Counted from the stretch's first letter, positions 29,964 through 46,475 are shown. The stretch is 64,000 bases of DNA from an uncultured delta proteobacterium (GCA_963727625.1 CAVSHR010000003.1:168601-232600), one strand, 5' to 3'. The notes: a model not told the origin generated them from the sequence alone. Made by a program: numbers and translations.

Positions 29964-30790
29964 GCGACCCTCGCTTCCTCGACCGGACTCGTTTTCTCGG
30001 CGCGCAGTTTTTCGAGGCGGCGTAGCGCCAAGAGGGCGGCCCCCAAAGCGCCGACGAGTTCGGGTTCCTCGCTTACGTTGATCTTTCTTTTGAGCGTTTC
30101 CTCCAGCGCTTTGACCATGCCTTTTTGCCGAGCCACGCCGCCGACGAAGGTAACCTCGTCTTCCATACCGGAGCGCTTGAGCAACGCCAAGGCCCGCGAA
30201 GCAAGCGAGTTGTGCACGCCGCGGAGAATATTTTCGATAGTCTCTCCGTTTGAGACGTGATTGATAATCTCCGATTCGGCCAAGACTGCGCAGACGCTGC
30301 TGATGGTCTGCGGCTTCTTCGCTTGAATCGAGAGATCCCCGACTTGCTCGATTCCGACCTCGAGATACTTGCAGGCGCGTTCGATGAAGCCGCCGGCCCC
30401 CGCAGCGCACTTGTCGTTGGTGCGGAACTCGCGCACCTTGCCGGTGTCGGTGACCCGCAGCGCTCGCGTGCTTTGCGCGCCGATGTCGAGCACGCAGCGG
30501 GTCTTGGGAAAGAGAAAAACCGCGCCTCGGCCGACGCAAGTAATATCGGTAATCTGCACGTCGCGAAAGGGGACGTTATAGCGACCGAAGCCGGTGGTGG
30601 CTATGTAATTGATGTCGTTATCCTTGAGCCCCGCTTCTTGAAGCGCCAAGTCCAACACCTCCCGGGCGACCGCGGCGAAATCCGGCCGGGTTTTGACGGA
30701 TGCTCTGGCGCAAATACGCCTGTCCCCATCCATGATCACCGCCTTGGTCGACTTTGCGCCCATGTCAATGCCAGCGACAAAAGTCATCAT
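29960..30790 (-). CDS. ASKHA ATPase activase subunit (BcrD/BzdP-like)
   Basis: GIDMGAKSTK, TTGFGR, NDKCAAG, SSVCAVLAESE. Confidence 0.88.
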   Translation of the reverse strand: MMTFVAGIDMGAKSTKAVIMDGDRRICARASVKTRPDFAAVAREVLDLALQEAGLKDNDINYIATTGFGRYNVPFRDVQITDITCVGRGAVFLFPKTRCVLDIGAQSTRALRVTDTGKVREFRTNDKCAAGAGGFIERACKYLEVGIEQVGDLSIQAKKPQTISSVCAVLAESEIINHVSNGETIENILRGVHNSLASRALALLKRSGMEDEVTFVGGVARQKGMVKALEETLKRKINVSEEPELVGALGAALLALRRLEKLRAEKTSPVEEARVA

Positions 30791-30808
30791 GCCTCCTTAA
30801 AATAAGCG

Positions 30809-31642
30809 TCAGGCAGTCGGCTCTGCCTGGATCGCTGTTGCCTGGGGCTTTTCCCCTGTTGCCTTCGTGGCGCGCTCCAGGGCGAAGATGCTTGCGCCCA
30901 GTGCGCCGACGAAATGAGAATCCGGACTGACGTTGAGCTTCATACCGAGTTTTTCTTCGAGCGCACGCACCATGCCGATGTTGAGCGACACGCCGCCGGT
31001 GAAAGTCACTTCAGGTTCAATGCCGACACGCCGCACCAGTGAAATGGTCCGCGCGGCGATAGCGCTGTGCACGCCGCCGAGGATATCCTCGGTTTTTTTG
31101 CCTTGGGCGAGGTAGGACATGATGTCAGACTCGACGAAAACCGTGCAGACGGTGGTCAGGCGCACGGGATTTCGCGCTTGGAGCGAGATATCGCCGATAT
31201 CGCCCAAGCCCATGCCCAAAGCCTCGGCGGCGCTGGCAAGAAATCTTCCGGTGCCGGCGGCGCACTTGTCGTTCATGACGAAGTCCTTGACATCGCCGTC
31301 GATGCCGATTTTGATGCCCTTGGCATCCTGGCCGCCCATGTCGATCACCGTGCGCGTGTTGGGAAAAAGATAACTCGCGCCGCGCGCATGGCAGCTGATC
31401 TCGGTGATCTGGGCGTCGCCGAAGGTCACTTTGTAGCGGCCGTACCCGGTGCCCACTACGTAAGCGACATCTTCCCGTTTGACTCCCGATTTTTGCAGCG
31501 CTTCGACGAAGCACCTTTCGGCGGCCCGGGTGACGTAAGCGCCGGTGTCGGTCAAGGCTCGGGCGATGATCTCAAACTTGTCGTTGAGTATAATTCCTTT
31601 GGTCTGAGTCGAGCCAACATCGATCCCTGCGGCGTAAATCAT
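30809..31642 (-). CDS. ASKHA ATPase activase subunit (BcrA/BzdQ-like)
   Basis: [39 protein letters not shown]. Confidence 0.9.
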
Positions 31643-32940
31643 GCTGCGCCTCCTGCCTCCGCGCTGGCACGGACCATTTTCTTGTGCTCCAATGATTCGA
31701 AAAAAGCGTCGATGCGGTTTTTGAGCTGGGCTTCGGAAAAATATCGCGGATCTTCGATATCCGATTCGATCAACAGAGTGGGAACGTTTAGTTCTTTGGT
31801 GAAATATTCACGCATGTCGCCCTGTCCCGCGGAAAAGAGGCGGCAGCTTTTGACCGAGTGAATCACCAGAGCGTCGGCATGCCACTCTTCGACATAACGG
31901 CGGATCTGCTGGTAGCGCTGCAAGAAGTTGCGGTTGGTGACGTTCCACTGGAGCATATGCTGGGCGATGGATTCCAACGGGTGGTTGGTATCATGCCGGA
32001 AGCCGAATTCCCACAGGCCGCCGACAGTGGAGTAGGTCGAGGCCACCGCCACCGCCCCCCATTTGGAAAACATATCTCGAAATGTCCGCAGGTACGGCCA
32101 AGGCGGCGGTCCTTCAATGACGAAGCGGAAACGCTCCTCAGGTAACGGCCCGGTTCCAAGCCGCACTTTTTCTTCCATCTCTTTAAGGGCAGTTTCAAAA
32201 AATCTCACTCCCTCTTCGGTTCCCCTCAGGCAATAGAGCGGCGCCATCATAGTCACCGAATCGAAATAGGCGTCGAAGGGAGAAGGAGTATTCTTGGTTA
32301 GCCCCTTGATGCGCGACCACATCTCGCCGGTTTCGCTCGAGCGGCGGACGATTTCTTTCAGCCGCGCGTAGTCGAGCTTCTTTCCTGTCAATTTCTCGCA
32401 GATCTCGATCACCTCTTCAAGCTGGCGCACGACGTAAGTAATGTCCTCTGGGCTCGGTTGTCCGGATGGATCGCGCGAAAATGGAATGTCGAGGTTGTAC
32501 AGTTGCCCGTCGCAGTACTCGGCCAGGTGCTCGAACCACTGGAGGTAGACATTGCAGCCCACGTAGTTGCAGAGGATCAGCGACGGCAGCGGAATCGTTG
32601 CGAAGGGGGTCTTGCGGTCGCCGAGAAACATGCCCACATCCGCTTTCACATAGGCGCAGTTGTCCATCGAGTAGCCGAGTTCCTCGGCCTTTTGGATAAA
32701 CGGCAGGGCGCTCTTTTTGACCGCAAGCTGCAGGGCATCGATCTCCGGATAGATTGGGATCATGTCGAACGCTTGGATCAATTCCACCGGGTTGCCGCTG
32801 ATCAGCATGTAGACGGCTTTGCCCTCGCCCTTTTCCGCGGCCCGGGTGACGCGCTCGAAGTAGCGCCCCATCATGTCTTTTTGCAGCAGATGCATCTGAC
32901 CCTGATACTGAGTTTTTTCGGCTACAGCTGTTTCCGCCAT
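31639..32940 (-). CDS. Benzoyl-CoA reductase/2-hydroxyacyl-CoA dehydratase family subunit (BcrB/BadE-like)
   Basis: [52 protein letters not shown]. Confidence 0.88.
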
Positions 32941-32949
32941 AAGGTTCTC

Positions 32950-34107
32950 CTAATCGAAAAGCATTGACTCGACAAAGGTCTCGACCTCGGTACGCGCTTT
33001 ATCGAAGATCCACATCTTTTCCTCAAACTCGAGGCATAGGTGCGGAATACCCTCTTTTTCCAGCGCCCGTTTATAAAGTGCGTAGTCGAACAGCGCTGGC
33101 TCGCAGAATTTTGCTGCCAGGATTAATACCGCGGTGGCGCCGGTCTCCTTGAATTTGTCGATGAGATGTTTGGATTTGGGCTCGCGGGTATCGTGTTTGA
33201 CGCCGGAATAAACGCTTTGATTGATGTAAGCATCGGCGATGTTACGCAGGGGATCGCCTTCGGTCGAGATATCTCCAGGAAACCAGCGCCAACCAACGAG
33301 GAAGTCATCGTCCAGAATGTAGCAGCCGGCGGCCTCCAGGCCGTCGAGCAGCTCGATGGGCGGCTGCTCGCAGAAAGAGCCTTCGAGGACGACTTTGATC
33401 CTATCCTTGGGCTTTTCGTGGCGTTGGCGCAGTTCCGGCAGCGCTTCGTTGAGTATGGCGATGTGTTCCTGTGGCGGGAGCAGGGTGCCGACGCGGGTTA
33501 AGACGTAACACTCTACAGTGGAAAGATTCTGCGGCGTCTCTCTGCGGATGGCATAGAGTTCCCGCATCAGGCGACGCTGTTCATTATACAGCGAGATACT
33601 ATTTCTCAAGCCATCGTCGGTGATCTTTTTTCCGGACAATTGCTCATAGCTGGCGGCAAGCCTTTTGTACTCAGAGATCAAGTATTCCACGGTATGGGGG
33701 GAAGTCATGTTCTGGGGAAAGTGTATGTATTCCACCATCAGATCGGGAAAGTTTCTTTTGAAAACGCTGCCGAGATTGCGCGCCGGGTCGCAGATCGAGT
33801 GAAAAACCATGCCGTCGAGAAACTTGAGCCTCTCGGTGAGTCCCAACTCAAGGGTGCTTTTGACAATGGAACAAATGAAGGATTGAAAACGAGAATCGGC
33901 GTGGGCGATCTCCAGCCGGTTGCCGGCGCCGATGATGCCGACAGGCAGCATGCCCGCGGCATGAATGAGTTCGACGGGAGTGTAGACCGGATAGCACCCG
34001 ACCATTTTCTTATCGGGATTCGCTTTCTTCGACTCTACGGCGAGATCGAGTGGCGAAATCTCAAGGGGCTCGCGGTACCGAGAAACAAAATTCTCGACAG
34101 TTGTCAT
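32950..34107 (-). CDS. Benzoyl-CoA reductase family subunit (BcrC/BadD-like)
   Basis: PVYTPVELIHAAG, FQSFICSI, SICDPARN, GSFCEQPP, KFCEPAL. Confidence 0.88.
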   Translation of the reverse strand: MTTVENFVSRYREPLEISPLDLAVESKKANPDKKMVGCYPVYTPVELIHAAGMLPVGIIGAGNRLEIAHADSRFQSFICSIVKSTLELGLTERLKFLDGMVFHSICDPARNLGSVFKRNFPDLMVEYIHFPQNMTSPHTVEYLISEYKRLAASYEQLSGKKITDDGLRNSISLYNEQRRLMRELYAIRRETPQNLSTVECYVLTRVGTLLPPQEHIAILNEALPELRQRHEKPKDRIKVVLEGSFCEQPPIELLDGLEAAGCYILDDDFLVGWRWFPGDISTEGDPLRNIADAYINQSVYSGVKHDTREPKSKHLIDKFKETGATAVLILAAKFCEPALFDYALYKRALEKEGIPHLCLEFEEKMWIFDKARTEVETFVESMLFD

Positions 34108-35016: not shown

Positions 35017-36105
35017 TTAATTGAGAAACTTCATTTCGATGAAATCGACCAGAGGACCGATGCGATCCGGTTGAAAATTCGGGGCTGTGGCTGCCGGCGA
35101 TTTCGAGCCCACCGTCGCAACAACTAAATCACTCGCCCTGCATAGACGTTTATCGTCGTGCCCCGACAGCACTTCGATCTTTGGCCCAGGTTCCTCGTGA
35201 AACCCTTCCACTAAGACGATGTCGTGGCCACTAAAATGAGGCAAGATTTGCTCCAGTGAATTGCGATCACTGGCGGCGCGAAATAGCGCAACGTGAGCCG
35301 GTGCCATCAGCGCAACCGTATGGGCACCCGCTCGCCGGTGGCGCCAGGTGTCCGTGCCCACAGAGTCCACTTCGGCGGGAAAGTCGGAATGATGATGTTT
35401 GACAGTGCCAACCCGATATCCGCGCGCGGTTAACTCGGCGACGAGTTTTTCGATGAGCGTGGTCTTGCCGACTTTCTTAAAGCCGACGACATGTAAAACT
35501 CGGGCGGGGACTGCGGTTCGTGAGCGGTCGGGCGGCTGGGACGCCCCGTTGGACTGCGCGCATGGAATGCAGAGCGTTTGTCCTGCCAGGTGAATTTCCC
35601 GACGGAGATTTATTCCCTCGCCGCAAGAGTCACAATAGACCCTTGGGCTACGAAAGCCCGGCATGTTCTCTTCGGGGATTTCTACCCAGGCTGGCTGAAT
35701 CCCAAAGAGTAAATCCTCGGGCATGACGGTGTAAGCTTGCTTTTGCGCCTCCCTGGGATTTGCCGCATTGGGCGCATAGGCGGCAGCATGGTCTCGCGCA
35801 TTGTCTTTGGCGAGAACTCGAACCGCTTTCTGCGCTGCCGTGTTTATAAAGGTTGCCGCCATCTTGCCATAGTCGAGAAACTTCAGGGTTCGCTTGCCCA
35901 GCGAGCAGCCGGTCACGGCTTGCACTGCGTCGGTGGCGCAACGATCCATCTCGACGTAAACAATCAGTTTTTTGCAGCCGTGTGGTTCGTCGATACCGAC
36001 TTCACGGCAACCTACCATGGCCATGCGCACGCCGAGCACTTGCCCGGCGCAGTGATGTCCGTGAAGAGAGGACGATTCCTTCAGCAGTTCAGTCAATGGG
36101 CGCAT
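35017..36105 (-). CDS. FmdE-domain / zinc-finger / MobB fusion protein
   Basis: HGHHCAGQVLG, CATDAVQAVTGCSLGK (FmdE); CDSCGE..CIPC; VGFKKVGKTT, VKHHH, LVEGF (MobB). Confidence 0.85.
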   Translation of the reverse strand: MRPLTELLKESSSLHGHHCAGQVLGVRMAMVGCREVGIDEPHGCKKLIVYVEMDRCATDAVQAVTGCSLGKRTLKFLDYGKMAATFINTAAQKAVRVLAKDNARDHAAAYAPNAANPREAQKQAYTVMPEDLLFGIQPAWVEIPEENMPGFRSPRVYCDSCGEGINLRREIHLAGQTLCIPCAQSNGASQPPDRSRTAVPARVLHVVGFKKVGKTTLIEKLVAELTARGYRVGTVKHHHSDFPAEVDSVGTDTWRHRRAGAHTVALMAPAHVALFRAASDRNSLEQILPHFSGHDIVLVEGFHEEPGPKIEVLSGHDDKRLCRASDLVVATVGSKSPAATAPNFQPDRIGPLVDFIEMKFLN

Positions 36106-36180
36106 AGGTCTTTCAAACTATTTCAACTACCGAATTCAGTTCACGAACTCGCGCGCGCTCGGGGCAATTGCGCCATCTAT

Positions 36181-37692
36181 TCATGACCGACTTTTCTCAA
36201 GTCGCAACTGTTGCCAGACAGAGACCGCTTTTTGGCCGTTGCGATCGCTCTGCGAGCCATCCCAAACGGCGAATGCCACCGGGACCGTCTCGCCCGGTGT
36301 GAGCTGACGATCTCGGGAACTCTCGGTTCTCAAGGGCCGGATCATCACCACGCGCCACTGACCTTCGCGCCAGACCGCGCTGCCGCGAATCTGTTGGTCA
36401 TCGAGGGGTTGTGGGGTCAAAGTGCCGAAGCCCTCGGCGTTCAATTCAGTTATACGGGACTGTGGTACCACCGAGTACAGTCCGTTCCCCGCAGCGCGCG
36501 CCGTCGCATAAACGGGGTCCGAGTCGAATGGATAGTCGTCTATTGCTAAGTTGGGATATGCTTTGGTGAAAGAATCGGCAATCGCTTTCAGTCCATTATC
36601 CGCGCGCCAGTACCAGATGTTGACGCCCGCGGTTTTTTCACCCATCGTGAAGCTCGGTGTTTTCCCGCTGAGGGGGAACTGAGCGGCGACAGCGTCGGCG
36701 AATGCTTGCGGTCGGGCCGCCGAAAAATCTGCGGTGGGATCATCCCATTCGATACATAAAGCCAAATCGCTTACTGTGTACAGGGCCCGAATCCGGAGGG
36801 AGCGAATAGTTTTTTCTCGCGCCCACAGCGTCATCAGTTTGACTTCGATAGGCGACACGCGCTCCCAGTCAGGGTTGAACGGATCCGCGGGATCGATGGC
36901 TGTTCGGGCGCGCTTGGCCGTGATTAAGACCGAAGGGTTGGCCAGGGCAGGCTTAACTGGCGTGCGCCCAAGAGACTGCACATAGGCGACCAGTTCCCAG
37001 GACTGTTCCGGAGTTAGCGAGTCGCTGAACACGGGCATCGGTGTGCCACCGACTCCGACTTGAATCACCTTGTAGATATCTTGCGGGGTCGCGCCCTGTT
37101 TGAAAAGGTCCGGGCGTGTGAGGTCGCGCGGGCGGATGGGATATCCCCATTCATCTCGAAGGTCTGCAACCGAGGAGCCATCGCCTCGTCCGCCCGGCCC
37201 ATGACAGGAATCACAACCGGCATCGACATAGAGTTGCTTACCCGCTGCGACCATCTTCGGTGTGAGGTGTGGCAGGGCGGGAATCTTGACCGGCTGGCCC
37301 GGCTTGGAAAAGGCGGCGGAAAAGGTTTTGATGTAGTCCACCAGGGCCAAGCGATCGCTTGGACTGAGATTCGCCCAAGCGGGCATGGCGGTCCCGGGTA
37401 TTCCCCGGGTGATCGTGCGCAAAAGATCGGCATTCGTCGGTGTAGTCGGAGTCGACCGAAACTTAAAAATTCCGCGGGTAAAATCACGCGGTTCGGGAAA
37501 AATGAGATAGGCTCCCGGCCCGTCTCCACGGCCCTCCGCTCCATGGCAAACCGCACAGTTGGCGGAATAAAGTTCCTTGCCACGGGTTAGGCTTATTGTC
37601 GGGCGATTTATTTTCTGCGCCGCCAACGCCAACGTTGATGCGAACACCGCGACCACAAGGCCGATCATCCAATTGAACTTCATGCGGATCAC
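36181..37692 (-). CDS. Diheme cytochrome c fused to a DMSO-reductase type II heme b (EbdC/NxrC-like) domain
   Basis: Signal peptide, CAVCH and CDSCH, then EWDD, DAVAAQFP, FTMGE, VNIWYWRA, AEGFGTLT, AFAVWDG..RNGQK; GTG start after AGGAGG. Confidence 0.85.
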   Translation of the reverse strand: MIRMKFNWMIGLVVAVFASTLALAAQKINRPTISLTRGKELYSANCAVCHGAEGRGDGPGAYLIFPEPRDFTRGIFKFRSTPTTPTNADLLRTITRGIPGTAMPAWANLSPSDRLALVDYIKTFSAAFSKPGQPVKIPALPHLTPKMVAAGKQLYVDAGCDSCHGPGGRGDGSSVADLRDEWGYPIRPRDLTRPDLFKQGATPQDIYKVIQVGVGGTPMPVFSDSLTPEQSWELVAYVQSLGRTPVKPALANPSVLITAKRARTAIDPADPFNPDWERVSPIEVKLMTLWAREKTIRSLRIRALYTVSDLALCIEWDDPTADFSAARPQAFADAVAAQFPLSGKTPSFTMGEKTAGVNIWYWRADNGLKAIADSFTKAYPNLAIDDYPFDSDPVYATARAAGNGLYSVVPQSRITELNAEGFGTLTPQPLDDQQIRGSAVWREGQWRVVMIRPLRTESSRDRQLTPGETVPVAFAVWDGSQSDRNGQKAVSVWQQLRLEKSRS

Positions 37693-37718
37693 GCTGCTCC
37701 CTCCTTTAATTTGCCACT

Positions 37719-38474
37719 TCAGTGCCGGGTCGAATCCTCCATTCCAGCACCGCAGGCCGCAACACATGAAAAGTTAGTCCCTTCGGGCTCAGCGGAGGCG
37801 GGTGCCGGCTCGAGATCGTTCGCCCCAAGATCAACACCGACATCGTGACAGTGCGCCTTTACGCAATCTGCCGTGATATCAGCGATTAATTCGAAAATGC
37901 CTCCACCAGCCCGGTCGCGGAGCTGTTTGAGAAAGCTCGGCGCCCATCGCCCAAGGTGGTCCCTTAAAAAACCGATTCCGGCCTGGCCACAAAGGTCGGC
38001 ATTCTCCCCCCACTCATGAAGTAGTGCATAGGCTTCTTTCAGCGCGAGTACGTGCATGAATTCGAGCTCGACGGCGATGTGGTCCGGTCGCTCCCGCCGA
38101 GTGTCGGACGGCTCCAGGCCAAATGCCCGGTAGAAACCGCTCACGTCCGCCAGACACTGAGTTTCCTGAAAAACATGATGGGTGCCATAGTCGGCTTCGT
38201 ACGGGCGTAGCTCGCCCGCCGCCGTATGGCCGAAGATCGCTACATGCTCGCCCACGAATTGCTCCGCCGTCATCGCCTGAAGTCTTTCTGGCAAACATGT
38301 AAAGCCCCTAGCGCTCCAGCCTAGAACGGAACGAACGCGTTCCAAGTCTCCTGGCGACGAATCGTGAAGCAGCTGCCACGATGCACTGTCAGGGTAGACA
38401 TAGAGCGTGGAGAGGTAATGATAGAGGGCGCTCCGTGCGTGCGCCTGTTCGATTCGTCGGCTTATGGTGTGCAT
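37719..38474 (-). CDS. TorD/DmsD/NarJ-type molybdoenzyme chaperone
   Basis: PYEADY, LADVSGFYRAFG, RPDHIAVELEFM, DHLGRW. Confidence 0.9.
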   Translation of the reverse strand: MHTISRRIEQAHARSALYHYLSTLYVYPDSASWQLLHDSSPGDLERVRSVLGWSARGFTCLPERLQAMTAEQFVGEHVAIFGHTAAGELRPYEADYGTHHVFQETQCLADVSGFYRAFGLEPSDTRRERPDHIAVELEFMHVLALKEAYALLHEWGENADLCGQAGIGFLRDHLGRWAPSFLKQLRDRAGGGIFELIADITADCVKAHCHDVGVDLGANDLEPAPASAEPEGTNFSCVAACGAGMEDSTRH

Positions 38475-38488
38475 CGCGGGGTCTCCGT

Positions 38489-39764
<1,276 letters not shown>

Positions 39765-39772
<8 letters not shown>

Positions 39773-40037
39773 CGTGACCTCCCCGGGATTCACTCTTAAA
39801 ACGTTTGCGCACGCGCTCGATGAGGCTTTGCACATAGGCCTCACCTCGCGCACGGTAGATCGAATGGGCGCCGGCATAAAAAGGATCGCGGAAGAGACCC
39901 AGCAAACGTTCGCGGTCGTAGCCGAGCCAGACGAATTCCTCCACGAAACATTCGGCCATCACCTCCGTGTCTCCTTCGGGCACGGAGACTCGAACCAGCT
40001 CCATCGGGTCGTCGTCTTCAAGGGGTTTGCGTGCCAT
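39765..40037 (-). CDS. Small acidic hypothetical protein between the alpha and beta subunits
   Basis: AAGGA RBS, DDPMELV..MAECFVEEF..LFRDPFY; stop overlaps the nxrB start. Confidence 0.75.
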
Positions 40038-40099
40038 GCTTCATCCGTCCTTAATATGGCTGGTTTTCTTACGTCCGGCCGTCTCGCGGTCCAGTGCGG

Positions 40100-43000
40100 T
40101 TATTTGTCATTTACCTTGATCATCTCTCCGCCGAGATAGCGCGTCATGAAATCCGCTTCGGCGCCGGGAGTCCGGCCGGTGCGTGCCGTTTCCCAAATTC
40201 CCTTGCCTTCGAGCCCGCCGTCCTCGGCCTTGACGATCCGGATGAGCGTTTCCTTCGGCACCGTATTGACTGCGTGGTTGTCGACGTCGAAGCCGAACAC
40301 GAAGCCCACGCTTCCGGTTTTCTTGTGGAACAGCGTGTCGGTCTGGTGCATCGGAGGAAGCCAGCCGCGCGTGATGGATTGATGCGAGCCGTAGCGATAA
40401 GAGGCTTGGTAACCGGTTTCGGGCGCCAGCGCGCGTTTGTCCGGACGGGTTTCGTGAGCCCGGACGGTTCGTTCCGTGGCAATCCAGCCGGTGTGCTTTA
40501 GAACCGTGAAGTGATAGGGCAGGGCCGGATTGAACTTCACTCTAACCATGCAGCGGAAAGCGCGGTAACGAGAGTCATCGGGCTTCCAGCCGACGTAGGG
40601 CCGGTCCACCGGGTTCGCGTCAACGTAGACGTAGTCGCCGTCATGGAGACCCATTGCCATCCCGGCTTGCGGGTTTAGTTGGATCTGGCGGTCGGCGACG
40701 CCGGGAGCCCGCTTGTCCATGCGATAGGGGTCGCCGAAATTGCACGACCAGATCCAGTTCCAGTCCACCGTCGACCACGACGAGTGGGTTGAATGGCGGC
40801 TCTTAGGAGTGGAGCAGAAAAAGCGAAATCCCTGAGTCCAAAGCGGATTGACGCTCTTCTTCACCTCGGACCACGCCATCTTGACATTGCGCACCGAGCG
40901 CAGGTCGGCGTCCATGGCATCCAGTGGAATACCGTAGTTCTCTGGGCGAACGAAGGGACTGGTCGAGACGATGACGTTGGGGAGATAGGGCGTCGCTTCG
41001 GGTCCCTCGCGGTGGACGATCAGGTTCTCCCCGTACTCGATCGCTTCGGGGAGATCGCAGTAGGCATTGAGCCGTCCCGTATCGGTGTAAAACGGGACAT
41101 CATCGTGAACTTGCTCCCAGAAAGGCACCCGGGGATAAGTACGGAACAGCATGAGCGCTGTTCCTGGCGAACCGTAGCCCCCCTTGATGATTTTATCGAC
41201 CCCGTACGACTCACGCTGGTTCCGCGTCGTTGTCGAGCTGTCGAATACCCGTTGGAGATAGACCTGCGGCTTTTTCTCCGAGACGTATTTCCAATAATCT
41301 CGGAAGCGGTGATCGCCGAATTTATCGCTCAGGGCCGCGGCCACGCCGGCGAAAATCGCCGCATCGTCCTTGGAGTCGTACAGCGGTTTGATGCCCTCGC
41401 CGCCCCAGATCTGGATGAAGGGATTGGAGCAGGAGCCGCCGCACTCGATCGTTTCAAATTCCATCCACGAATTGGCCGGCAGCACCAGGTCGGCGTATTC
41501 CGCGGAGCCGGTCCATTCGATTTGTTGATCGACGATCATGTCGACCTTCGGCAACACGTTGACGATCAGATGATAAACCCACTTGGACTGGTTGATGAAA
41601 TTTGCGTTGTTGTACCACATCATCTTTGTCGGACAGGGAAGATGGGATTTGCCGGTAAAGACTTTTCGTCCTTTGGGAGTGTCTACAGAGAGGATTTTTT
41701 CCCCGTAACCCCAGTACGAAGGTTCCTCTGCTTCGGTCGTGTCGCGCAACTGTTCACGCGTCAAACGCGCCTTTTCGTCCAGTACCGGATGAAAAGGATC
41801 TTCGTGCACGTAGGCGCCCACTCCAGGACCGCTCCACGGCGAGGCCTGAAACAGCGCGCCTTTGTAATTGCCGGCCCAGGTAAAGGCGCCGGCGCCATGC
41901 ACTCCGATGTTCCCGGTCAGGATCAGCGGCAGGTAGGTGGCGCGGTTATGAAGCGTGGCGTGGAAGTAGTGGTTGATCCCTTCACCGAAGTGAATAGCCG
42001 CGGGCTTGATCGTGGCAAGGTCCTTGGCGAGTTGGTGCACGACCTGCTTTTTCGCTCCGGAAATCTGTTCGACGGTGTCGAGGTCATAGTCTTTCAGATG
42101 CGCTTTGTAAATCGACCATACGGTCATTACTTCGACCGCCGTGCCGTCGATCAACCGCGTTTTGCCTGTCCATTCGAGTTTTGGATCAATGCCTTTGGCC
42201 ACGAGCCTTCCGCCCACGTCATCCCTCGTTACCGCCTTGAGACTCTGGCTCTTTGCGTCGAAGACAACGAAATCACCAAGTTTGTCGTACTGTTCGCGGC
42301 TAAGGTTTTGCAGTTTGAAGCTCGGGCCGTTGGGATCAAGGCTTGCTTTGTAATCTGGAAAGAGTTCCTGAGCATGTAATCGCTTGAGAGTATCGGTTCG
42401 AATCAGGAACGGCATGTCGCTAAAATGCTTGACAAAGTCGGCATCGTACCAACCCTCGTCCATGAGGATTTTGCTGAGGCCGAGGAACACGGCGGTGTCT
42501 GATAGACCGGGCCGCACCGGAATCCACGTATCACATTTGGTGGCGGGGGCGTTGTACTCTGGTGAAATGACGTAGATTTTACCGCCTCGCTCCATGATCT
42601 CAGTCATCCAGTGGGAATCGGCCATCTTATTTTCAATGAGATTTTTCCCGACTTGAATATGCAGCTTCGTGAAGCGCAGGTCATTAAAATCACAGTCCGA
42701 TGTTTGCAGACCGTGGACGAAGGGTTGTCCCGGCGCCTGGTCGCCGCGCCAGGTGTATTCATTCCAATCCCGCGACCCGAGCGCCTTCGCTTCAGGCACG
42801 CCGCGGACGTGATGATCGAGCAGCGCCATCATGTTAACGAATCGGTAAATGCCGAACTTTCCGAGCACACCGTGAATGGGCAGGTTCGAGCCGAACTTCA
42901 TCGTTCGCGTGCCGGCCTCGTTCCAATGCGTGAGCATTAAAGGATCATAGCCGTCGGCGAGCAGGCGCTGCTTGCCGCTCTCACTGCTATAGGTCTTGGC

Positions 43001-43570
43001 GATCGCCGCGAGGCCTTCGGCCGCGTAGCGAGACGCCTCTTTCCATGAGACGCGCACAAACTGATCATTGCCACGATCATCGAAACGGAATTTCTGACGA
43101 AGCTCAGGGCGGTCCGAAAGCGAAGGGAAATTCGCGTCAGCCCATTCTTTCCATCCCTTGCGGATGACAGGCCCTTTGAGACGGTGAGGTCCGTAGACGC
43201 GCCGTTGAAACGTGTAACCCTTCAAACAGCCTCGCGGGTTCCAGTTTACCGATGCTTTGTTACCATAGAGATCGCCGTAATCGCCGTTGGTGTATTCTTG
43301 TTCGCTGCGCAGAACGATGCCGTTGCGAACGAAAGCCCGGAGCCTGCACATATGAGTGTCGTTAGGGCCGCACACCCAAGTGAAGCTTCGGTCATAGCGA
43401 TACTGATCACGGTAGATTTTTTCCCATTCGCGATTGGGATAGAAGGCCAGCGGATTTTCCACGCCGGCGATCGGCTGGAGGAGACGTAGAGCCAGAGCGG
43501 CCCGGCTAAAAAGAAGACCGGCGCCCGCCGTCGTTCCCGTCTTGAGAAAATCGCGTCTGGTCAGATCCAT
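40100..43570 (-). CDS. nxrA: Tat-exported NxrA-like Mo-bis-MGD catalytic subunit (anammox/Nitrospira-type clade)
   Basis: TRRDFLK Tat motif, FS0 motif CGPNDTHMC..NPRGC, YTWRGDQ, GEGINHYFH, TPKSRH, YGSHQS; ~1156 aa. Confidence 0.85.
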   Translation of the reverse strand: MDLTRRDFLKTGTTAGAGLLFSRAALALRLLQPIAGVENPLAFYPNREWEKIYRDQYRYDRSFTWVCGPNDTHMCRLRAFVRNGIVLRSEQEYTNGDYGDLYGNKASVNWNPRGCLKGYTFQRRVYGPHRLKGPVIRKGWKEWADANFPSLSDRPELRQKFRFDDRGNDQFVRVSWKEASRYAAEGLAAIAKTYSSESGKQRLLADGYDPLMLTHWNEAGTRTMKFGSNLPIHGVLGKFGIYRFVNMMALLDHHVRGVPEAKALGSRDWNEYTWRGDQAPGQPFVHGLQTSDCDFNDLRFTKLHIQVGKNLIENKMADSHWMTEIMERGGKIYVISPEYNAPATKCDTWIPVRPGLSDTAVFLGLSKILMDEGWYDADFVKHFSDMPFLIRTDTLKRLHAQELFPDYKASLDPNGPSFKLQNLSREQYDKLGDFVVFDAKSQSLKAVTRDDVGGRLVAKGIDPKLEWTGKTRLIDGTAVEVMTVWSIYKAHLKDYDLDTVEQISGAKKQVVHQLAKDLATIKPAAIHFGEGINHYFHATLHNRATYLPLILTGNIGVHGAGAFTWAGNYKGALFQASPWSGPGVGAYVHEDPFHPVLDEKARLTREQLRDTTEAEEPSYWGYGEKILSVDTPKGRKVFTGKSHLPCPTKMMWYNNANFINQSKWVYHLIVNVLPKVDMIVDQQIEWTGSAEYADLVLPANSWMEFETIECGGSCSNPFIQIWGGEGIKPLYDSKDDAAIFAGVAAALSDKFGDHRFRDYWKYVSEKKPQVYLQRVFDSSTTTRNQRESYGVDKIIKGGYGSPGTALMLFRTYPRVPFWEQVHDDVPFYTDTGRLNAYCDLPEAIEYGENLIVHREGPEATPYLPNVIVSTSPFVRPENYGIPLDAMDADLRSVRNVKMAWSEVKKSVNPLWTQGFRFFCSTPKSRHSTHSSWSTVDWNWIWSCNFGDPYRMDKRAPGVADRQIQLNPQAGMAMGLHDGDYVYVDANPVDRPYVGWKPDDSRYRAFRCMVRVKFNPALPYHFTVLKHTGWIATERTVRAHETRPDKRALAPETGYQASYRYGSHQSITRGWLPPMHQTDTLFHKKTGSVGFVFGFDVDNHAVNTVPKETLIRIVKAEDGGLEGKGIWETARTGRTPGAEADFMTRYLGGEMIKVNDK

Positions 43571-43792: not shown

Positions 43793-44079
43793 ATACTAAG
43801 GACAATGTTTTCCCTCTGATTGTTTGTCAAAGCCGGAGAGAATTTTTCATGAAATAGGAAAATCCCGGTTGGATTTCCAAATTTTGCGACCTCGTTTTCG
43901 TGCGTCAGACAAATAGGTTCAAATCTTCTGATCACGATTCCTGAAATGAATTTGGGGTAATATCTTTATTCTGGAAAAACGAAATATTTTCGCCACGCCC
44001 AGATGGCCACGTACGCAGTTCAAGCCGGGTCAGCGTCAGAGCAAGATCAATCCGCCTCGACTCCTTGCTGGGTTTAGCA

Positions 44080-44366
44080 TTTGTTTTTGTTTCCTCGCCA
44101 GCCTTCACCGTGCCGTCTTGGCGAGCTTGCCGAGCGTCTCGTGCCAAACCTCGATGGTATGATTGCCCGCCGGAATGTCGCTGATCGTGAAATTGCCGCC
44201 CCTGTCGGTCGCAGCGATGTAGGGGTGATCGGCGACAACTCGACCAGACGGGGGTGCCGCCTAATGATGTCGCGAGCGATTCGGTGAGAGCCTGAGCGCC
44301 AAATGAAAAATACGATGCAGCGACCAACGCGATGAATAGCGAAACACTCCGCATTGCCCGATTCAT
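44080..44366 (-). pseudogene. Internally deleted, frameshifted secreted carboxypeptidase-regulatory-like/cupredoxin-associated gene
   Basis: Signal peptide joined directly to the C-terminal piece VVADHPYIAATDRGGNFTISDIPAGNHTIEVWHETLG in another frame. Confidence 0.6.
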
Positions 44367-44667
44367 CGCTAGCCCCAGTTTAGTAAGGGATGATTTTCCT
44401 CATCGAACAAATTCAAGACTATTGACGAACCGCGGATGTCCTAGGAGGCTACAGCGAGACCGGCAGAACATTCCCGTTTTTAGGAAGGCGAATTCTCTTC
44501 TTTACCAAACAATGGAAAAACCAATTGTGAACTCTGCAAGGGAAGGTGTCTAGGAACCATTCTTGATTACGTCGCGGACGCCCTTATTGCTAACAATAAT
44601 CTCGAGATTTTGACACTTCTCTAAAACAAACAACTGTGTGGCATGTAATCTGCACAGCTTCATATCC

Positions 44668-45858
44668 ATGGATTTTAATGAGCGGCCGTTTACCGTCATT
44701 TGGGAAACGACACGGGCTTGCGATCTCGCATGCATTCACTGCCGCGCGGAAGCCCGCGCGCGGCGCGATCCGGAGGAACTGAACTTTGCGGAAGTCCAAG
44801 GACTGATCCAAGGCATCAAAGAGTTCGGTTCGCCCCATCCGATCTTTGTCTTAACCGGCGGCGATCCGGCTAAGCGTCCGGATATTTTTGACATCATCAA
44901 GTACGCTCGAAGCGAAGGTCTCCGCGTGGCCATGACGCCGTCAGCTACGCCGTTGATCACGCGCGATACGGTTCGCCGTTTCGCCGAGGCGGGACTGGTT
45001 CGTCTCGCCGTGAGCTTGGATGGCAAAGATGCCGCCGCCCACGACGGCTTTCGAGGCGTCCATGGTTCATTTGAGCGGACCCTGAAAATTCTCGATTGGT
45101 GCCGCGATTTCGGTCTGGAGTCGCAGATCCACACGACTGTAACCCGCCATGTGTTGGCCGATTTACCGGCGGTCGCGGCGATGATCGCCGAGCGCGGTAT
45201 CAAACTCTGGGCGCTCTTTCTGCTCATCGCAGTTGGCCGGGCGGCGCGCCCGGAGATTCGCCGGCTCAATATCACTGCGCGCGAGGTCGAGTCACTGTTT
45301 CATTGGCTATACGATCTGAACAAATCAGCCCCGTTTGATGTCACGCCGCGCGAAGGCTATCACTACCGGCGCGTGCTATTGCAGCGACGCGCGGCTGAAT
45401 TGGCCATGCCCGTGGAGCAACTTTTCACCGAGGCATACGACAGGTCATGGACACCGTCAGAGGTCGCGCCAAACGCCAAGGCGACCAAGATTCTGCGCGC
45501 CCCCCTCGGCGTCAACGATGGTCGAGGCGTCGTATTCATTTCTCACACTGGTGATGTTCAACCAAGCGGCTTTTTGAATCTCGCCGGAGGCAATATTCGC
45601 TCTCAGTCATTGTCGGAAATCTACCGATCGTCAGATTCGTTTATCCGCGTGCGCGACTACACGCAGCTCAAAGGCAAGTGCGGCGTGTGCGAGTTCAAAT
45701 CGATCTGTGGTGGTAGCCGCTCGCGAGCTTACGCGATCACCGGCGATCCCATGAGCAGCGATCCCTACTGTGTTTATCAGCCGGCGGCTTGGCAAGCTCG
45801 GCACTCCACGGCAAGGGCTCAAGCCGAAAATCGCGGGCGGCTGGGACACGCGAACTAA
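44668..45858 (+). CDS. Radical SAM/SPASM protein, AhbD/NirJ-like (TIGR04053-type)
   Basis: WETTRACDLACIHCRA, GVNDGRG, GKCGVCEF..CGGSRSRAY..DPYC. Confidence 0.85.
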   Translation: MDFNERPFTVIWETTRACDLACIHCRAEARARRDPEELNFAEVQGLIQGIKEFGSPHPIFVLTGGDPAKRPDIFDIIKYARSEGLRVAMTPSATPLITRDTVRRFAEAGLVRLAVSLDGKDAAAHDGFRGVHGSFERTLKILDWCRDFGLESQIHTTVTRHVLADLPAVAAMIAERGIKLWALFLLIAVGRAARPEIRRLNITAREVESLFHWLYDLNKSAPFDVTPREGYHYRRVLLQRRAAELAMPVEQLFTEAYDRSWTPSEVAPNAKATKILRAPLGVNDGRGVVFISHTGDVQPSGFLNLAGGNIRSQSLSEIYRSSDSFIRVRDYTQLKGKCGVCEFKSICGGSRSRAYAITGDPMSSDPYCVYQPAAWQARHSTARAQAENRGRLGHAN

Positions 45859-45890
45859 GAGTTAGAAAAGCAGCCAAAAGGAGAAAGAAT

Positions 45891-46475
45891 ATGGAACCTA
45901 CGACCTCCCATGGTTGCGCTGGCAGCCATCAAGCCGAGAAACCGACGGCGATTCTCAGCGATGAGCATCGCATCATCGAACGGGTGCTCGGCGCCGTCGA
46001 GAAGCTGGCGAAAGGTTCGGTAGGCCCACTGGACCCTTGGAAGAAGGCGCTCGATTTTATCCGCCGCTTTGCCGATCAGTGCCATCACATCAAGGAAGAA
46101 AAGGTTCTGTTTCCGGCCATGGAGGCGCATGGGATTCCGAACGAAGACGGGCCCATCGGAATGATGCTGATGGAACACGAGGAAGCGCGATCGTACGTGC
46201 GAGCCATGCTCGCGGCAATTACTCTGATCGAAAGCAACAACGAGGCCGGTAAAACAAGCCTTATCAGCAGCGCGCAAGCCTACTGCCGTCTACTGCGCGA
46301 GCATATCCAAAAGGAAGACGAGATTCTGTTTCGCATGGCTGACGAGGCGATTCCCGCCGAAGAACAGAAAAAGCTCTCGGCAGCTTTCGCTCAGCACGAG
46401 GCCGAAGAAATGGGCGCGGGAGTCCATGATAAATATCTGAAGATCGCGGCGGAATTGGAAGGCGTCACGAGATAA
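45891..46475 (+). CDS. Hemerythrin-like HHE domain protein
   Basis: LSDEH, HHIKEE, MLMEH, HIQKED; AAGGAG RBS. Confidence 0.88.
   Translation: MEPTTSHGCAGSHQAEKPTAILSDEHRIIERVLGAVEKLAKGSVGPLDPWKKALDFIRRFADQCHHIKEEKVLFPAMEAHGIPNEDGPIGMMLMEHEEARSYVRAMLAAITLIESNNEAGKTSLISSAQAYCRLLREHIQKEDEILFRMADEAIPAEEQKKLSAAFAQHEAEEMGAGVHDKYLKIAAELEGVTR

What the first reader, a model, noticed from the sequence alone, without database searches (positions are those of the whole stretch)
35017..43570. Periplasmic anammox/Nitrospira-type NXR-like operon in a heterotrophic-looking context
Seen: Tat-NxrA, 90-aa protein, NxrB, chaperone, cytochrome c/heme b fusion and FmdE-MobB. NxrA has the CxPNDTHxC FS0 motif and NxrB starts PKVYNWHLGR, both hallmarks of periplasmic NXR rather than cytoplasmic NarGH; there is no NarI. 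NxrB keeps all-Cys CTMACKS, whereas Nitrospira has Asp there (recalled). Inference: beside a strictly anoxic reductase operon it more likely serves respiratory reduction of nitrate or another oxyanion than nitrite oxidation. If so, nxrB-based nitrifier surveys would misassign it.
Basis: partly seen in the sequence, partly recalled or inferred. Interest (0 to 1): 0.75.

Follow-up and report, generated by a model that had tools for sequence, protein, structure and literature searches.

The report
Periplasmic NXR-type nitrate/nitrite oxidoreductase operon
This is a complete operon for a molybdenum enzyme that interconverts nitrite and nitrate outside the cytoplasm; the same operon occurs in hundreds of uncultured non-nitrifier genomes, and sequence alone cannot show which direction it runs.

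Summary
The alpha, beta and gamma subunits match the solved Kuenenia nitrite oxidoreductase far better than NarGH, perchlorate reductase or ethylbenzene dehydrogenase. The Asp-containing FS0 site, the Mo-ligand Asp, Asn70 and the haem b Met/Lys ligands are all kept. No NarI was found in the window.

The operon is not rare. At least 591 species genomes carry a relative. The closest are Candidatus Binatia MAGs at 81-87% identity. The block nxrA, 90-aa gene, nxrB, chaperone is conserved across about a dozen phyla.

In my trees the window lies in a different half of the family from an anammox-type anchor (59% identity). I could fetch no named Nitrospira or Nitrospina sequence, so their position is untested.

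The direction of catalysis cannot be read from the sequence. Nitrate reduction is my preferred guess, at about 0.5. The "anoxic neighbour" argument is weak: 1 of 80 related loci shares that neighbour. The recalled Nitrospira NxrB Asp is unsupported.

Such NXR-like operons in heterotroph MAGs, and the open question of direction, are already in print. This is a new member of a known kind. The 90-aa protein is universally conserved and has no assigned function.

The parts
40100..43570 (-). nxrA-like catalytic Mo-bisMGD alpha subunit, 1156 aa, with a Tat signal
   Evidence: 1599.5 bits to Kuenenia NXR-A 7b04_B over residues 1-1154. The next best PDB hits are 176 bits (4ydd_A), 139 (EbdA) and 108 (NarG). 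Identity to the anammox-type P0408 is 59%. C67, N70, D71, C75 and C115 are present, as is D277, which aligns with Kuenenia's Mo ligand Asp275 (residue roles from PMC8387239).
39765..40037 (-). p90: small acidic protein with no signal peptide and no assigned function, encoded between nxrA and nxrB. Its stop overlaps the nxrB start by 8 nt
   Evidence: A profile hit lies between nxrA and nxrB in 65 of 65 related loci that hold both gene ends. tblastn found it in 59 of 80 loci. AlphaFold2 with a 30-row alignment gives pLDDT 87.6 and three helices. There is no Pfam, NCBIfam or PDB sequence match. Foldseek against PDB finds nothing better than E = 1.5.
38489..39772 (-). nxrB-like Fe-S beta subunit, 427 aa, no signal peptide
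   Evidence: 639 bits to 7b04_A, against 208 (4ydd_B), 205 (EbdB) and 175 (NarH). All Cys of the cluster motifs are invariant in 26 aligned sequences.
37719..38474 (-). nxrD: TorD/NarJ-family assembly chaperone, 251 aa
   Evidence: PF02613, E = 2.7e-19. TIGR03482 type II DMSO-reductase chaperone, 95 bits, below its cut-off of 152. Found downstream of nxrB in 60 of 80 loci.
36181..37683 (-). Gamma subunit: Sec signal, then a dihaem cytochrome c domain fused to an NxrC-type haem b (EB_dh) domain. No membrane helix after the signal
   Evidence: Residues 61-267 score 167 bits to the dihaem cytochrome 6h5l_B. Residues 320-525 score 95.6 bits to Kuenenia NXR-C 7b04_C. There are two CxxCH motifs. Met (in SFTMGEK) and Lys513 align with the Kuenenia haem b ligands Met155 and Lys305 (PMC8387239). 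The same fusion occurs in 49 of the 70 loci where NxrC is seen.
35017..36105 (-). FmdE-MobB fusion, a probable molybdenum-cofactor maturation helper
   Evidence: PF02663 + PF03205. mobB TIGR00176 scores 126 bits against a cut-off of 76. FmdE lies next to nxr-like clusters in 6 of 80 loci and MobB in 10 of 80. The two are adjacent to each other in L046, L072, L075 and L078.
44638..45858 (+). Possibly associated: radical SAM/SPASM protein of family TIGR04053, an AhbD-like haem synthase relative, divergent from nxrA
   Evidence: TIGR04053 450 bits against a cut-off of 395; AhbD 307 bits against a cut-off of 500. A homologue lies near the nxr-like cluster in 6 of 80 loci. In L017 and L031 it sits next to a protoporphyrinogen-oxidase-like gene, a family found in 5 loci.
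45789..46475 (+). Possibly associated: hemerythrin-domain protein, weakly similar to YtfE/RIC
   Evidence: PF01814, E = 9.6e-23. YtfE model 34.7 bits, far below its cut-off. Related loci carry hemerythrin or RIC genes near nxr: tblastn hits in 3 of 80, and a bona fide RIC family in 5 loci.

Best explanation
The operon encodes a soluble periplasmic nitrate/nitrite oxidoreductase of the Nitrospira/Nitrospina/anammox (NXR) type.

Assembly, as I read it:
- NxrA receives Mo-bisMGD and the FS0 cluster in the cytoplasm, helped by the TorD-like NxrD and probably by FmdE-MobB.
- NxrB (four Fe-S clusters, no signal peptide) joins NxrA, and the pair is exported by Tat.
- p90 is a conserved cytoplasmic helper or transient partner of that step (inferred).
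- The gamma subunit is exported by Sec. It carries one haem b and two haems c, so the complex exchanges electrons directly with the c-type cytochrome pool rather than with quinol through a NarI anchor.

What is shown: family membership, the cofactor ligands, the export signals, the absence of a membrane anchor, and operon conservation.

What is inferred: the enzyme is reversible, like the Kuenenia enzyme. In this probably Binatia-like, heterotroph-looking host it mainly works as a respiratory nitrate reductase at low oxygen. Electrons would come from the quinol pool through alternative complex III or bc1 and cytochrome c.
For: Family:
- Full-length matches of all three subunits to the solved Kuenenia NXR, far above NarGH, PcrAB or EbdAB.
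- 59% identity to the anammox-type anchor P0408, which itself scores 2386 bits to 7b04_B.
- FS0 Cys/Asp ligands, Asn70 and the Mo-ligand Asp are invariant in A1. The haem b Met/Lys are aligned.
- A Tat motif is present, and no NarI was found among 57 ORFs.

Reversibility: purified Kuenenia NXR oxidises nitrite (61 nmol/min/mg) and reduces nitrate (1.5 umol/min/mg) with artificial partners (PMC8387239).

Reduction in heterotrophs:
- Thermogutta terrifontis grows anaerobically with nitrate. Its only Nar is a deep-branching enzyme encoded next to bc1 genes (PMC5673643, passages).
- That enzyme and the Methanoperedens nitrate reductase fall in the NXR-type clade in the tree described in PMC10732223 (passages).

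Context:
- The window shows a glyoxylate shunt, beta-oxidation-type genes and an oxygen-sensitive BCR/HAD-like cluster. It shows no carbon-fixation genes, no bd-like oxidase and no cupredoxins.
- Binatota MAGs are described as heterotrophs or methylotrophs with ACIII and complex IV (PMC8262859, passages).
- The nearest relatives are all MAGs of lineages without known nitrifiers.
- The AU test rejects a clade of the Binatia subclade plus the anammox anchor (delta lnL 497, p = 3.6e-31). The group was named after I had seen the tree.
Against: Nothing in the sequence fixes the direction.

- The same cofactor ligands occur in the nitrite-oxidising Kuenenia enzyme.
- A periplasmic enzyme wired to cytochrome c can equally feed a terminal oxidase, and Binatota are described as aerobes.
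- The authors of PMC10732223 favour nitrite oxidation for their 19 Planctomycetota homologues.
- The anoxic-neighbour argument rests on adjacency seen in only 1 of 80 loci.
- Only 64 kb of the genome is visible, so absence of autotrophy or oxidase genes is not shown.
- No named Nitrospira or Nitrospina NxrA could be fetched, so the window could still lie nearer to them than to anammox. Kuenenia is about 60% identical to those too (legend of Extended Data Fig. 1).
- The host assignment to Binatia rests on the nxr genes alone. Phyla are interleaved in the tree: 17 label changes where 11 is the minimum. Transfer is therefore possible.
Confidence: 0.5

Rival explanations
1. The enzyme works mainly as a nitrite oxidase in a heterotroph or mixotroph. 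Nitrite is oxidised in the periplasm. The electrons pass through the fused haem b/dihaem c gamma subunit to soluble cytochrome c and a terminal oxidase. This gives supplementary energy or removes toxic nitrite, without obligate autotrophy.
For: - Family membership with every known periplasmic nitrite oxidase.
- A gamma subunit with c-type haems resembles the 'alternative NxrC' proteins (1-3 haem c sites plus a haem b domain) of Nitrospina gracilis. An alternative NxrC is also listed among the genes conserved between Kuenenia, Nitrospira and Nitrospina (PMC3578206, passages).
- Binatota MAGs encode ACIII and complex IV.
- PMC10732223 proposes this role for Planctomycetota homologues, and PMC9306079 raises non-autotrophic nitrite oxidation.
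- Periplasmic oxidation releases protons on the outside, which favours this orientation for oxidation (established bioenergetics; stated in PMC8387239).
Against: - No cultured organism outside the known nitrifiers and anammox bacteria has been shown to grow this way, in the papers I read.
- No oxidase, cupredoxin or bd-like oxidase gene lies in the window or recurs in the 80 loci.
- Cultured heterotrophs with enzymes of this clade or distant Nar homologues respire nitrate.
Confidence: 0.3
2. The organism is a true chemolithoautotrophic nitrite oxidiser, and this is its canonical NXR.
For: Identity to the Kuenenia-type enzyme (59%) is about what is reported between Kuenenia and Nitrospira/Nitrospina (around 60%). 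The window holds a 2-oxoacid:ferredoxin oxidoreductase, an enzyme type also used in the reductive TCA cycle.
Against: - The nearest relatives are Binatia, Acidobacteriota and Planctomycetota MAGs, with no known nitrifier among them.
- The window holds a glyoxylate shunt and organic-acid uptake genes.
- The operon layout, with p90 and the chaperone between nxrA and nxrC, differs from the nxrABC order described for Nitrospina gracilis.
- At least 591 species genomes carry relatives, far more lineages than known nitrifiers.
Confidence: 0.05
3. The enzyme acts on another substrate, such as chlorate, perchlorate, selenate or an organic compound, like other type II DMSO-reductase enzymes with a soluble haem b subunit.
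For: - The subunit architecture (Tat alpha, beta, soluble EB_dh gamma, TorD-like delta) is shared with the Ser/Clr/Pcr/Ddh/Ebd enzymes.
- All curated NCBIfam models score below their cut-offs, so no curated name applies.
- A chromate-transporter gene is in the window, 30 kb away.
Against: - Only 25% identity to P0201, a protein above the TIGR03479 cut-off, against 59% to the anammox-type NxrA.
- TIGR03479 scores 312 bits against a cut-off of 985.
- Asn70, proposed to coordinate nitrite/nitrate and replaced by Ile in EbdA, is invariant.
Confidence: 0.07

Closest known systems
Kuenenia stuttgartiensis NXR-ABC (PDB 7B04; Chicano et al. 2021, PMC8387239)
   Same: - Alpha, beta and gamma align over their full lengths (1599, 639 and 96 bits).
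- FS0 has 3 Cys + Asp, with the Mo-ligand Asp, Asn70 and haem b Met/Lys ligands.
- Tat export, a soluble complex with no NarI, and small ORFs between nxrA and nxrB. Kuenenia has kustd1701 and kustd1702, listed as unknown or hypothetical (PMC6423088).
   Different: - About 59% identity (measured against the anammox-type P0408).
- In my trees the window sits in the other half of the family.
- Here the gamma subunit carries an extra dihaem cytochrome c domain. That domain resembles a separate Kuenenia dihaem protein, 6h5l_B. That this chain is Kustc0457, the partner of the nitrite-reducing HAO, is my recollection plus PMC8042395.
- No NXR-T, anammoxosome or hydrazine genes are in the window.
NXR of Nitrospira and Nitrospina (periplasmic nitrite oxidisers)
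   Same: Same enzyme family according to the literature. NxrB is about 425-430 aa. Nitrospina has 'alternative NxrC' proteins that combine haem c sites with the haem b domain.
   Different: - No named sequence could be fetched, so relatedness was not measured here.
- Nitrospina's operon is described as nxrABC, with the chaperone elsewhere. Here the order is A-p90-B-D-C.
- The nitrifier module of bd-like oxidase, cupredoxins and extra cytochromes is not in the window.
NXR-like operons of non-nitrifier MAGs (Planctomycetota, Verrucomicrobiota, Chloroflexota, Proteobacteria, Armatimonadota) and the nitrate reductase of Thermogutta terrifontis
   Same: This is the group the window belongs to. Five of my related loci (L009, L018, L022, L055, L064) are OFTM MAGs, the isolate naming used in PMC10732223. 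The architecture is the same. The published open question is the same: nitrite oxidation or nitrate reduction (PMC9306079, PMC10732223, bioRxiv 10.1101/2020.05.19.103440).
   Different: - The window's subclade is labelled Candidatus Binatia (L001 87%, L002 81%).
- In the passages I searched of the Binatota genome paper, nitrate respiration and NXR are not discussed (PMC8262859).
- The gene order has gamma downstream, as in 6 of the 49 loci with the fused gamma. The FmdE-MobB fusion is present.
Selenate, chlorate and perchlorate reductases, DMS and ethylbenzene dehydrogenases (type II DMSO-reductase enzymes, TIGR03477-03482)
   Same: A soluble periplasmic alpha-beta-gamma complex with a haem b gamma subunit and a TorD-like delta. 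[quoted passage not shown] Functionally, the fused gamma looks like that pair joined in one chain.
   Different: All four NCBIfam models score below their cut-offs (312/985, 262/481, 151/170, 95/152). Alpha is about 200 residues longer and 25% identical. FS0 has Asp where those enzymes have His coordination.

Membership tests
Periplasmic NXR (Nitrospira/Nitrospina/anammox type) | Tat-exported type II DMSO-reductase alpha subunit that is full-length similar to a biochemically characterised NXR-A | tested here: met
   RRDFLK motif. 1599.5 bits over residues 1-1154 to 7b04_B. 59% identity to the anammox-type P0408.
Periplasmic NXR (Nitrospira/Nitrospina/anammox type) | FS0 cluster bound by Cys67, Asp71, Cys75 and Cys115; Mo-ligand Asp; substrate-coordinating Asn70 | tested here: met
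   All are present at aligned positions and invariant in the 10-row alignment A1. Residue roles come from PMC8387239.
Periplasmic NXR (Nitrospira/Nitrospina/anammox type) | NxrB with four all-Cys Fe-S motifs and no signal peptide | tested here: met
   639 bits to 7b04_A. The Cys columns are invariant in 26 sequences.
Periplasmic NXR (Nitrospira/Nitrospina/anammox type) | Gamma subunit with an EB_dh haem b domain and Met/Lys ligands; no NarI | tested here: met
   PF09459. Met and Lys align with Kuenenia Met155 and Lys305. No NarI among 57 ORFs.
Periplasmic NXR (Nitrospira/Nitrospina/anammox type) | Physiological nitrite oxidation to nitrate | not testable with these tools
   This needs activity or expression data. 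Kuenenia NXR is bidirectional in vitro.
Nitrite-oxidiser genome (chemolithoautotroph) | CO2-fixation pathway and the conserved NXR-associated module (bd-like oxidase, cupredoxins, mono- and dihaem cytochromes; PMC3578206) | tested here: inconclusive
   None were seen among the 57 ORFs of the 64-kb window. The rest of the genome is not available.
Nitrite-oxidiser NXR clade in phylogeny | Alpha subunit nests within characterised nitrifier or anammox sequences | tested here: inconclusive
   It does not nest with the anammox anchor (AU p = 3.6e-31).
Membrane-bound respiratory nitrate reductase NarGHI | Cytoplasmic NarG without a Tat signal, His-coordinated FS0, NarI dihaem b anchor, scores above the narG/narH equivalog cut-offs | tested here: not met
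   narG 129 bits against 1084; narH 187 against 524. A Tat motif is present. Cys67 replaces the His. No NarI.
Type II DMSO-reductase subfamily TIGR03479 (Ser/Clr/Pcr/Ddh/Ebd-like) | Score above the curated subfamily cut-off | tested here: not met
   312 bits against a cut-off of 985 for alpha; 262/481 for beta; 151/170 for gamma; 95/152 for the chaperone.
Class I benzoyl-CoA reductase (neighbouring 'anoxic reductase' operon, 30809-34107) | Four subunits BcrABCD with two ATPase subunits, scoring above the equivalog cut-offs | tested here: not met
   BcrC 345 against 421; BcrB 312 against 487. Only one ATPase gene is present, and it passes the acyl-CoA dehydratase activase domain model (278 against 125). 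It is therefore a BCR/2-hydroxyacyl-CoA-dehydratase-family enzyme of unknown substrate. Oxygen sensitivity is inferred from the family.

The most novel reading that the evidence does not exclude
Binatia-like heterotrophs, and by extension the hundreds of non-nitrifier lineages that carry this conserved A-p90-B-D(+C) operon, may use it to oxidise nitrite aerobically as a supplementary electron donor. Biological nitrate formation would then be spread over about a dozen phyla rather than a handful of specialist nitrifiers. A second, independent novel element is that p90 may be an obligatory, so far uncharacterised assembly factor of all enzymes of this clade.
Probability: 0.25. Interest if true: 0.75.

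Novelty: new member of a known kind. Interest (0 to 1): 0.35.

Why it matters
Genes of this family are annotated as 'nitrate reductase', 'nitrite oxidoreductase' or just 'molybdopterin oxidoreductase' (names). Metagenome studies read them as nitrification or as denitrification almost at will. At least 591 species genomes carry a relative, so the unresolved direction affects inferred nitrogen budgets.

This window adds a Binatia-type member and shows how conserved the operon core is. By itself it does not make the question testable. The organism is uncultured, and the question has already been posed in print for other phyla.

Tried and rejected

2. I tried three routes to named nitrifier or anammox NxrA sequences. 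None gave a named Nitrospira, Nitrospina or Brocadiia protein.
   - I queried with the NxrA of L029, which is labelled 'uncultured Nitrospina sp.'. Its relatives are gammaproteobacterial and planctomycete MAG proteins.
   - I queried with L065.
   I anchored anammox indirectly through P0408, which scores 2386 bits to 7b04_B.

3. The ESM Atlas gave only coarse leads. For P0386 the first hit is a 'putative nitrate oxidoreductase' cluster whose commonest phylum is Nitrospirota, known for 9 members. I did not use these as labels.

4. For p90: Pfam at E up to 1 on 30 members gave only chance-level hits. The PDB sequence search gave E = 1.1 at best. Foldseek against PDB gave E = 1.5 at best. No fold assignment resulted.

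5. Regulatory signals led nowhere.
   - An FNR-type box search found no site between 43571 and 44000.
   - The sigma-70 and terminator scan gave counts equal to shuffled sequence.
   - There were no Rfam families and no tRNAs in the window.

6. The 144-aa ORF upstream of nxrA (43932-44366) has no family, a low-complexity sequence and no homologue in the 80 loci. It is probably not a gene of the system.

7. The Nitrospira genome paper (Lucker 2010) is not held. The supplementary trees of the cited papers were not opened.

Full report
**What is there.**
- The alpha subunit (40100-43570, 1156 aa) starts with a twin-arginine motif and carries the Pfam Molybdopterin domain.
- A 90-aa ORF (39765-40037) has no Pfam or NCBIfam family.
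- The beta subunit (38489-39772) starts MPKVYNWHLGR and has 4Fe-4S dicluster domains.
- A TorD/NarJ-type chaperone follows (37719-38474).
- The gamma subunit comes next. Its likely start is the Met at 37683, which opens a signal-peptide-like stretch. It has two CxxCH motifs and an EB_dh haem b domain.
- The last gene is an FmdE-MobB fusion (35017-36105).

No NarI family hit appeared among the 57 window ORFs scanned with Pfam.

**What it resembles.** Against all PDB chains, the three subunits hit the Kuenenia stuttgartiensis nitrite oxidoreductase first, by a wide margin.

| Subunit | Kuenenia NXR | Next best hits |
|---|---|---|
| Alpha | 1599.5 bits, full length | PcrA-type 176, EbdA 139, NarG 108 |
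| Beta | 639 bits | about 205-208, and 175 for NarH |
| Gamma, C-terminal half | 95.6 bits to NXR-C | - |
| Gamma, N-terminal half | 167 bits to the dihaem cytochrome 6h5l_B | - |

All curated NCBIfam models (type II DMSO-reductase alpha, beta, gamma and chaperone; narG; narH; ebdA) score well below their cut-offs, so no curated name applies.

The residues that Chicano et al. (PMC8387239; Main section and Extended Data legends read) identify in the Kuenenia structure are all present at aligned positions. These are the FS0 ligands Cys67, Asp71, Cys75 and Cys115, the substrate-coordinating Asn70, the Mo-ligand Asp, and the haem b ligands Met and Lys.

The unusual Asp is in NxrA FS0, and the other clusters are Cys-only in NXRs and NARs alike. 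I could not read the Nitrospira genome paper itself. In my 26-row NxrB alignment the four Cys of the first motif are invariant.

**How common it is.**
- A word-indexed protein search gave 2209 proteins at E <= 1e-10 among 8000 scored candidates. The best 120 range from 89% down to 66% identity. Where they are named, they come from Candidatus Binatia, Planctomycetota, Acidobacteriota, Terriglobia and Gemmatimonadota MAGs.
- The exhaustive search of 50%-identity representatives gave 3095 proteins at E <= 0.001. It put the whole NXR group into essentially one cluster.
Of these, 591 were confirmed as relatives, and the best 80 were kept.
- The two closest loci are Candidatus Binatia MAGs (87% and 81%). 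The rest (57-70%) span Planctomycetota, Acidobacteriota, Actinomycetota (Acidimicrobiia), Chloroflexota, Verrucomicrobiota, Methylomirabilota, Kiritimatiellota, Cloacimonadota, Elusimicrobiota and Pseudomonadota.
- The window's host is therefore probably Binatia-like. That rests on the nxr genes alone, because the flanks of L001 and L002 share nothing with the window's flanks.

**Operon conservation.** By tblastn with the window's proteins, the counts among the 80 loci were as follows. Several loci are cut by contig ends.

| Gene or domain | Loci of 80 |
|---|---|
| NxrA | 80 |
| Haem b domain of NxrC | 70 |
| NxrB | 66 |
| Chaperone | 60 |
| 90-aa protein | 59 |
| Cytochrome c domain | 50 |

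- The order A-p90-B-D is constant, while gamma moves. It is upstream and fused to the cytochrome c domain in 43 loci. It is downstream and fused in 6, as in the window. It has no cytochrome c domain in 21, mostly Actinomycetota and Chloroflexota.
- With a profile built from 30 p90 sequences, a hit lies between nxrA and nxrB in 65 of 65 loci that contain both gene ends. Twenty-nine of those loci contributed to the profile.
- FmdE occurs in 6 and MobB in 10 of the 80 loci. The two are adjacent in four Chloroflexota loci, so the fusion in the window is a recurring accessory.
- Haem c plus haem b 'alternative NxrC' proteins are already described for Nitrospina gracilis. An alternative NxrC is also listed among the genes conserved between Kuenenia, Nitrospira and Nitrospina (PMC3578206, passages). 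The fused gamma is therefore not new.

**The 90-aa protein.**
- AlphaFold2 with the 30-row alignment gives a confident three-helix model (mean pLDDT 87.6). Helices follow a less ordered N-terminus that carries the conserved DDPMEL motif.
- Foldseek finds nothing in the PDB better than E = 1.5.
- The protein has no signal peptide, and its stop overlaps the nxrB start.
- A complex prediction of NxrB with p90 gave weak support. The median score was 0.53 (runs 0.61, 0.53, 0.52) and the best of 3 controls was 0.00. Partner pLDDT was at least 66, and the runs agreed in at least 67% of contacts. In the tool's calibration, the mark was reached by 116 of 157 solved complexes and 2 of 215 mismatched pairs. 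Scores of 0.60 or under came from only 18 of those 157 and from both mismatches that passed. I read that as a lead, not as evidence of binding.
- In Kuenenia two small ORFs, kustd1701 and kustd1702, lie between nxrA and nxrB. They are listed as unknown or hypothetical, were transcribed, and have no value in the proteome table (PMC6423088, passages). One search for those two names found only that paper. Whether either is a p90 homologue could not be tested.

**Phylogeny.**
- I built a FastTree of 81 rows: the window, 67 of the 80 loci (the 13 left out had no nxrA ORF of 1100 aa or more, mostly cut by contig ends), and 13 database proteins.
- A larger FastTree had 199 rows. It added 118 of the 119 proteins P0332-P0450; P0392, at 940 aa, was dropped.
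- An IQ-TREE LG+G4 'quick' tree covered 40 chosen rows.
- The outgroups were P0201, the only protein above the Ser/Clr/Pcr-type cut-off, and unnamed deep branches.
- In all three trees the window sits in a well-supported subclade with the two close Binatia loci L001 and L002 and unnamed proteins (support 99-100).
- The NXR group splits into two halves with support 97-100.
- I identified an anammox-type anchor indirectly. P0408 scores 2386 bits to Kuenenia NXR-A, against 1834 for L065, 1712 for L006, 1599 for the window, 1590 for P0121 and 1059 for P0123. P0408 falls in the half that does not contain the window.
- An AU test rejects a clade of the Binatia subclade plus P0408 (delta lnL 497, p = 3.6e-31). 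I named that group after seeing the tree.
- The window is 59% identical to P0408. Kuenenia NXR-A is reported to be about 60% identical to Nitrospira and Nitrospina, 85% to Brocadia and Jettenia, 66% to Scalindua and 40% to Nitrotoga.
- Because I could fetch no named Nitrospira or Nitrospina sequence, their position relative to the window is untested. This is the main gap.
- Phylum labels are clustered but interleaved (17 changes where 11 is the minimum). That pattern fits transfer between phyla but does not prove it.

**Direction of catalysis.** The sequence does not decide it.

For reduction:
- The Kuenenia enzyme reduces nitrate about 25 times faster than it oxidises nitrite, with artificial partners.
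- Thermogutta terrifontis, a cultured heterotrophic planctomycete, respires nitrate. Its only Nar is a deep-branching enzyme next to bc1 genes (PMC5673643). PMC10732223 places it, with the Methanoperedens nitrate reductase, in the clade that holds anammox, Nitrospira and Nitrospina.
- Two nitrate-respiring Limisphaera strains have 'distant homologs of NarGHI', ACIII and no bc1 (PMC13608581). I did not see the supplementary figure that would show whether these homologues are NXR-type.
- The window looks heterotrophic.

For oxidation:
- All known periplasmic nitrite oxidases belong to this family.
- Binatota are described as aerobes with ACIII and complex IV (PMC8262859).
- The authors of PMC10732223 favour nitrite oxidation for their 19 Planctomycetota homologues.

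PMC9306079 states plainly that the role of such genes in heterotroph MAGs 'remains unknown'.

- That cluster is a BCR/2-hydroxyacyl-CoA-dehydratase-family enzyme below the benzoyl-CoA reductase cut-offs, with a single activase.
- Only 1 of 80 related loci has a homologue nearby.

Recurrent neighbours in the related loci:
- Rrf2-type regulators in 12 loci, including L001, where the gene is directly upstream of nxrA.
- Sigma-54 response regulators in 10 loci.
- PAS histidine kinases in 6 loci.
- RIC/YtfE-type di-iron proteins in 5 loci.
- The TIGR04053 radical SAM protein in 6 loci, plus the window.
- A protoporphyrinogen-oxidase-like gene in 5 loci.
- Rieske proteins in 3 loci.
- A NapA-like gene in L055, and NasC-like genes in L030 and L052.

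These point to regulation linked to nitrogen oxides and to haem supply. They fit either direction.

**The survey claim.** The Nitrospira nxrB primers nxrB169f and nxrB638r (sequences confirmed in PMC12542776) match the window's nxrB in the right orientation, 473 bp apart. The forward primer has 1 mismatch, at the penultimate 3' base. The reverse primer has 3 mismatches.

Among 64 nxrB genes (63 loci plus the window), none matches both primers perfectly. Thirteen have 3 or fewer mismatches in total, and two have 0 + 1. PCR surveys would probably miss this gene but could pick up some relatives. Annotation-based surveys already label such genes inconsistently.

**Verdict.** The gene set is one more member, of a Binatia-type subclade, of a widespread NXR-like operon that has been described and discussed for other phyla. 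My best reading is a reversible periplasmic nitrate/nitrite oxidoreductase wired to c-type cytochromes. It is used by a heterotroph mainly for nitrate reduction (about 0.5), with nitrite oxidation as the serious rival (about 0.3). The most useful by-product is that the 90-aa protein is a universal, structurally unassigned component of the operon.

Noticed in passing
window 44638-46475; loci L013, L016, L017, L031, L057, L062: A TIGR04053 radical SAM/SPASM protein (the second-best model is the haem b synthase AhbD) recurs near nxr-like clusters. In L017 and L031 it lies beside a protoporphyrinogen-oxidase-like gene. This hints at an oxygen-independent haem supply tied to the operon. In the window it is followed by a hemerythrin-domain protein.
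   Followed up: partly
L001 6302-6766 and 11 other loci; L021 6045-6821 and 4 other loci: Rrf2-family regulators (12 loci) and RIC/YtfE-type di-iron repair proteins (5 loci) recur next to nxr-like clusters. Both gene types are usually linked to nitric-oxide or nitrite stress. The window has no Rrf2 gene at the equivalent place.
   Followed up: partly
window 28249-34107: A cluster holds two HGD-D subunits (best models benzoyl-CoA reductase B and C, both below cut-off), one activase, a BadH-like dehydrogenase and an amidohydrolase. Further on lie an enoyl-CoA hydratase and two acyl-CoA dehydrogenases (22741-26328). It looks like an anaerobic ring or 2-hydroxyacyl-CoA pathway of unknown substrate.
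   Followed up: partly
window 52306-56965: The glyoxylate shunt genes lie side by side. The isocitrate-lyase-family ORF is unusually long (819 aa), and the malate synthase G ORF (783 aa) overlaps it by about 150 nt as called.
   Followed up: no
window 58350-62894: Several ORFs match only parts of their domain models. These are AMP-binding (profile positions 142-384), PP-binding + thioesterase, and two ABC ATPase pieces of 193 and 186 aa. Frameshifts, pseudogenes or assembly errors are possible.
   Followed up: no
window 403-1413 and 11602-12681: A MoaA-type molybdenum cofactor synthesis gene and a MoCF_biosynth-domain gene lie in the same window as the molybdoenzyme operon. No Moco riboswitch or other Rfam family was found.
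   Followed up: no
L029 (record labelled uncultured Nitrospina sp.): Its NxrA groups with Planctomycetota MAG proteins. Its closest database relatives are named Gammaproteobacteria or Planctomycetota. Either the bin label is unreliable for this contig or the gene was transferred.
   Followed up: partly
L065 14077-17253; L006 14173-14970: L065 carries a second nxrA-like gene a few kb downstream of the first operon, cut by the contig end. L006 has an extra NxrC-like ORF.
   Followed up: no
L055 3311-5908; L030 2206-4437; L052 340-2706: Other nitrate reductase-like genes lie within 10 kb of nxr-like clusters. One is NapA-like (882 bits, just under its cut-off of 904) and two are NasC-like (about 790 bits against a cut-off of 1100).
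   Followed up: no
13 loci of Actinomycetota and Chloroflexota, e.g. L056 6560-7555: A conserved protein of about 330 aa, with no Pfam or NCBIfam family, follows the cytochrome-free nxrC in these lineages. It may be their electron-transfer partner or anchor.
   Followed up: no
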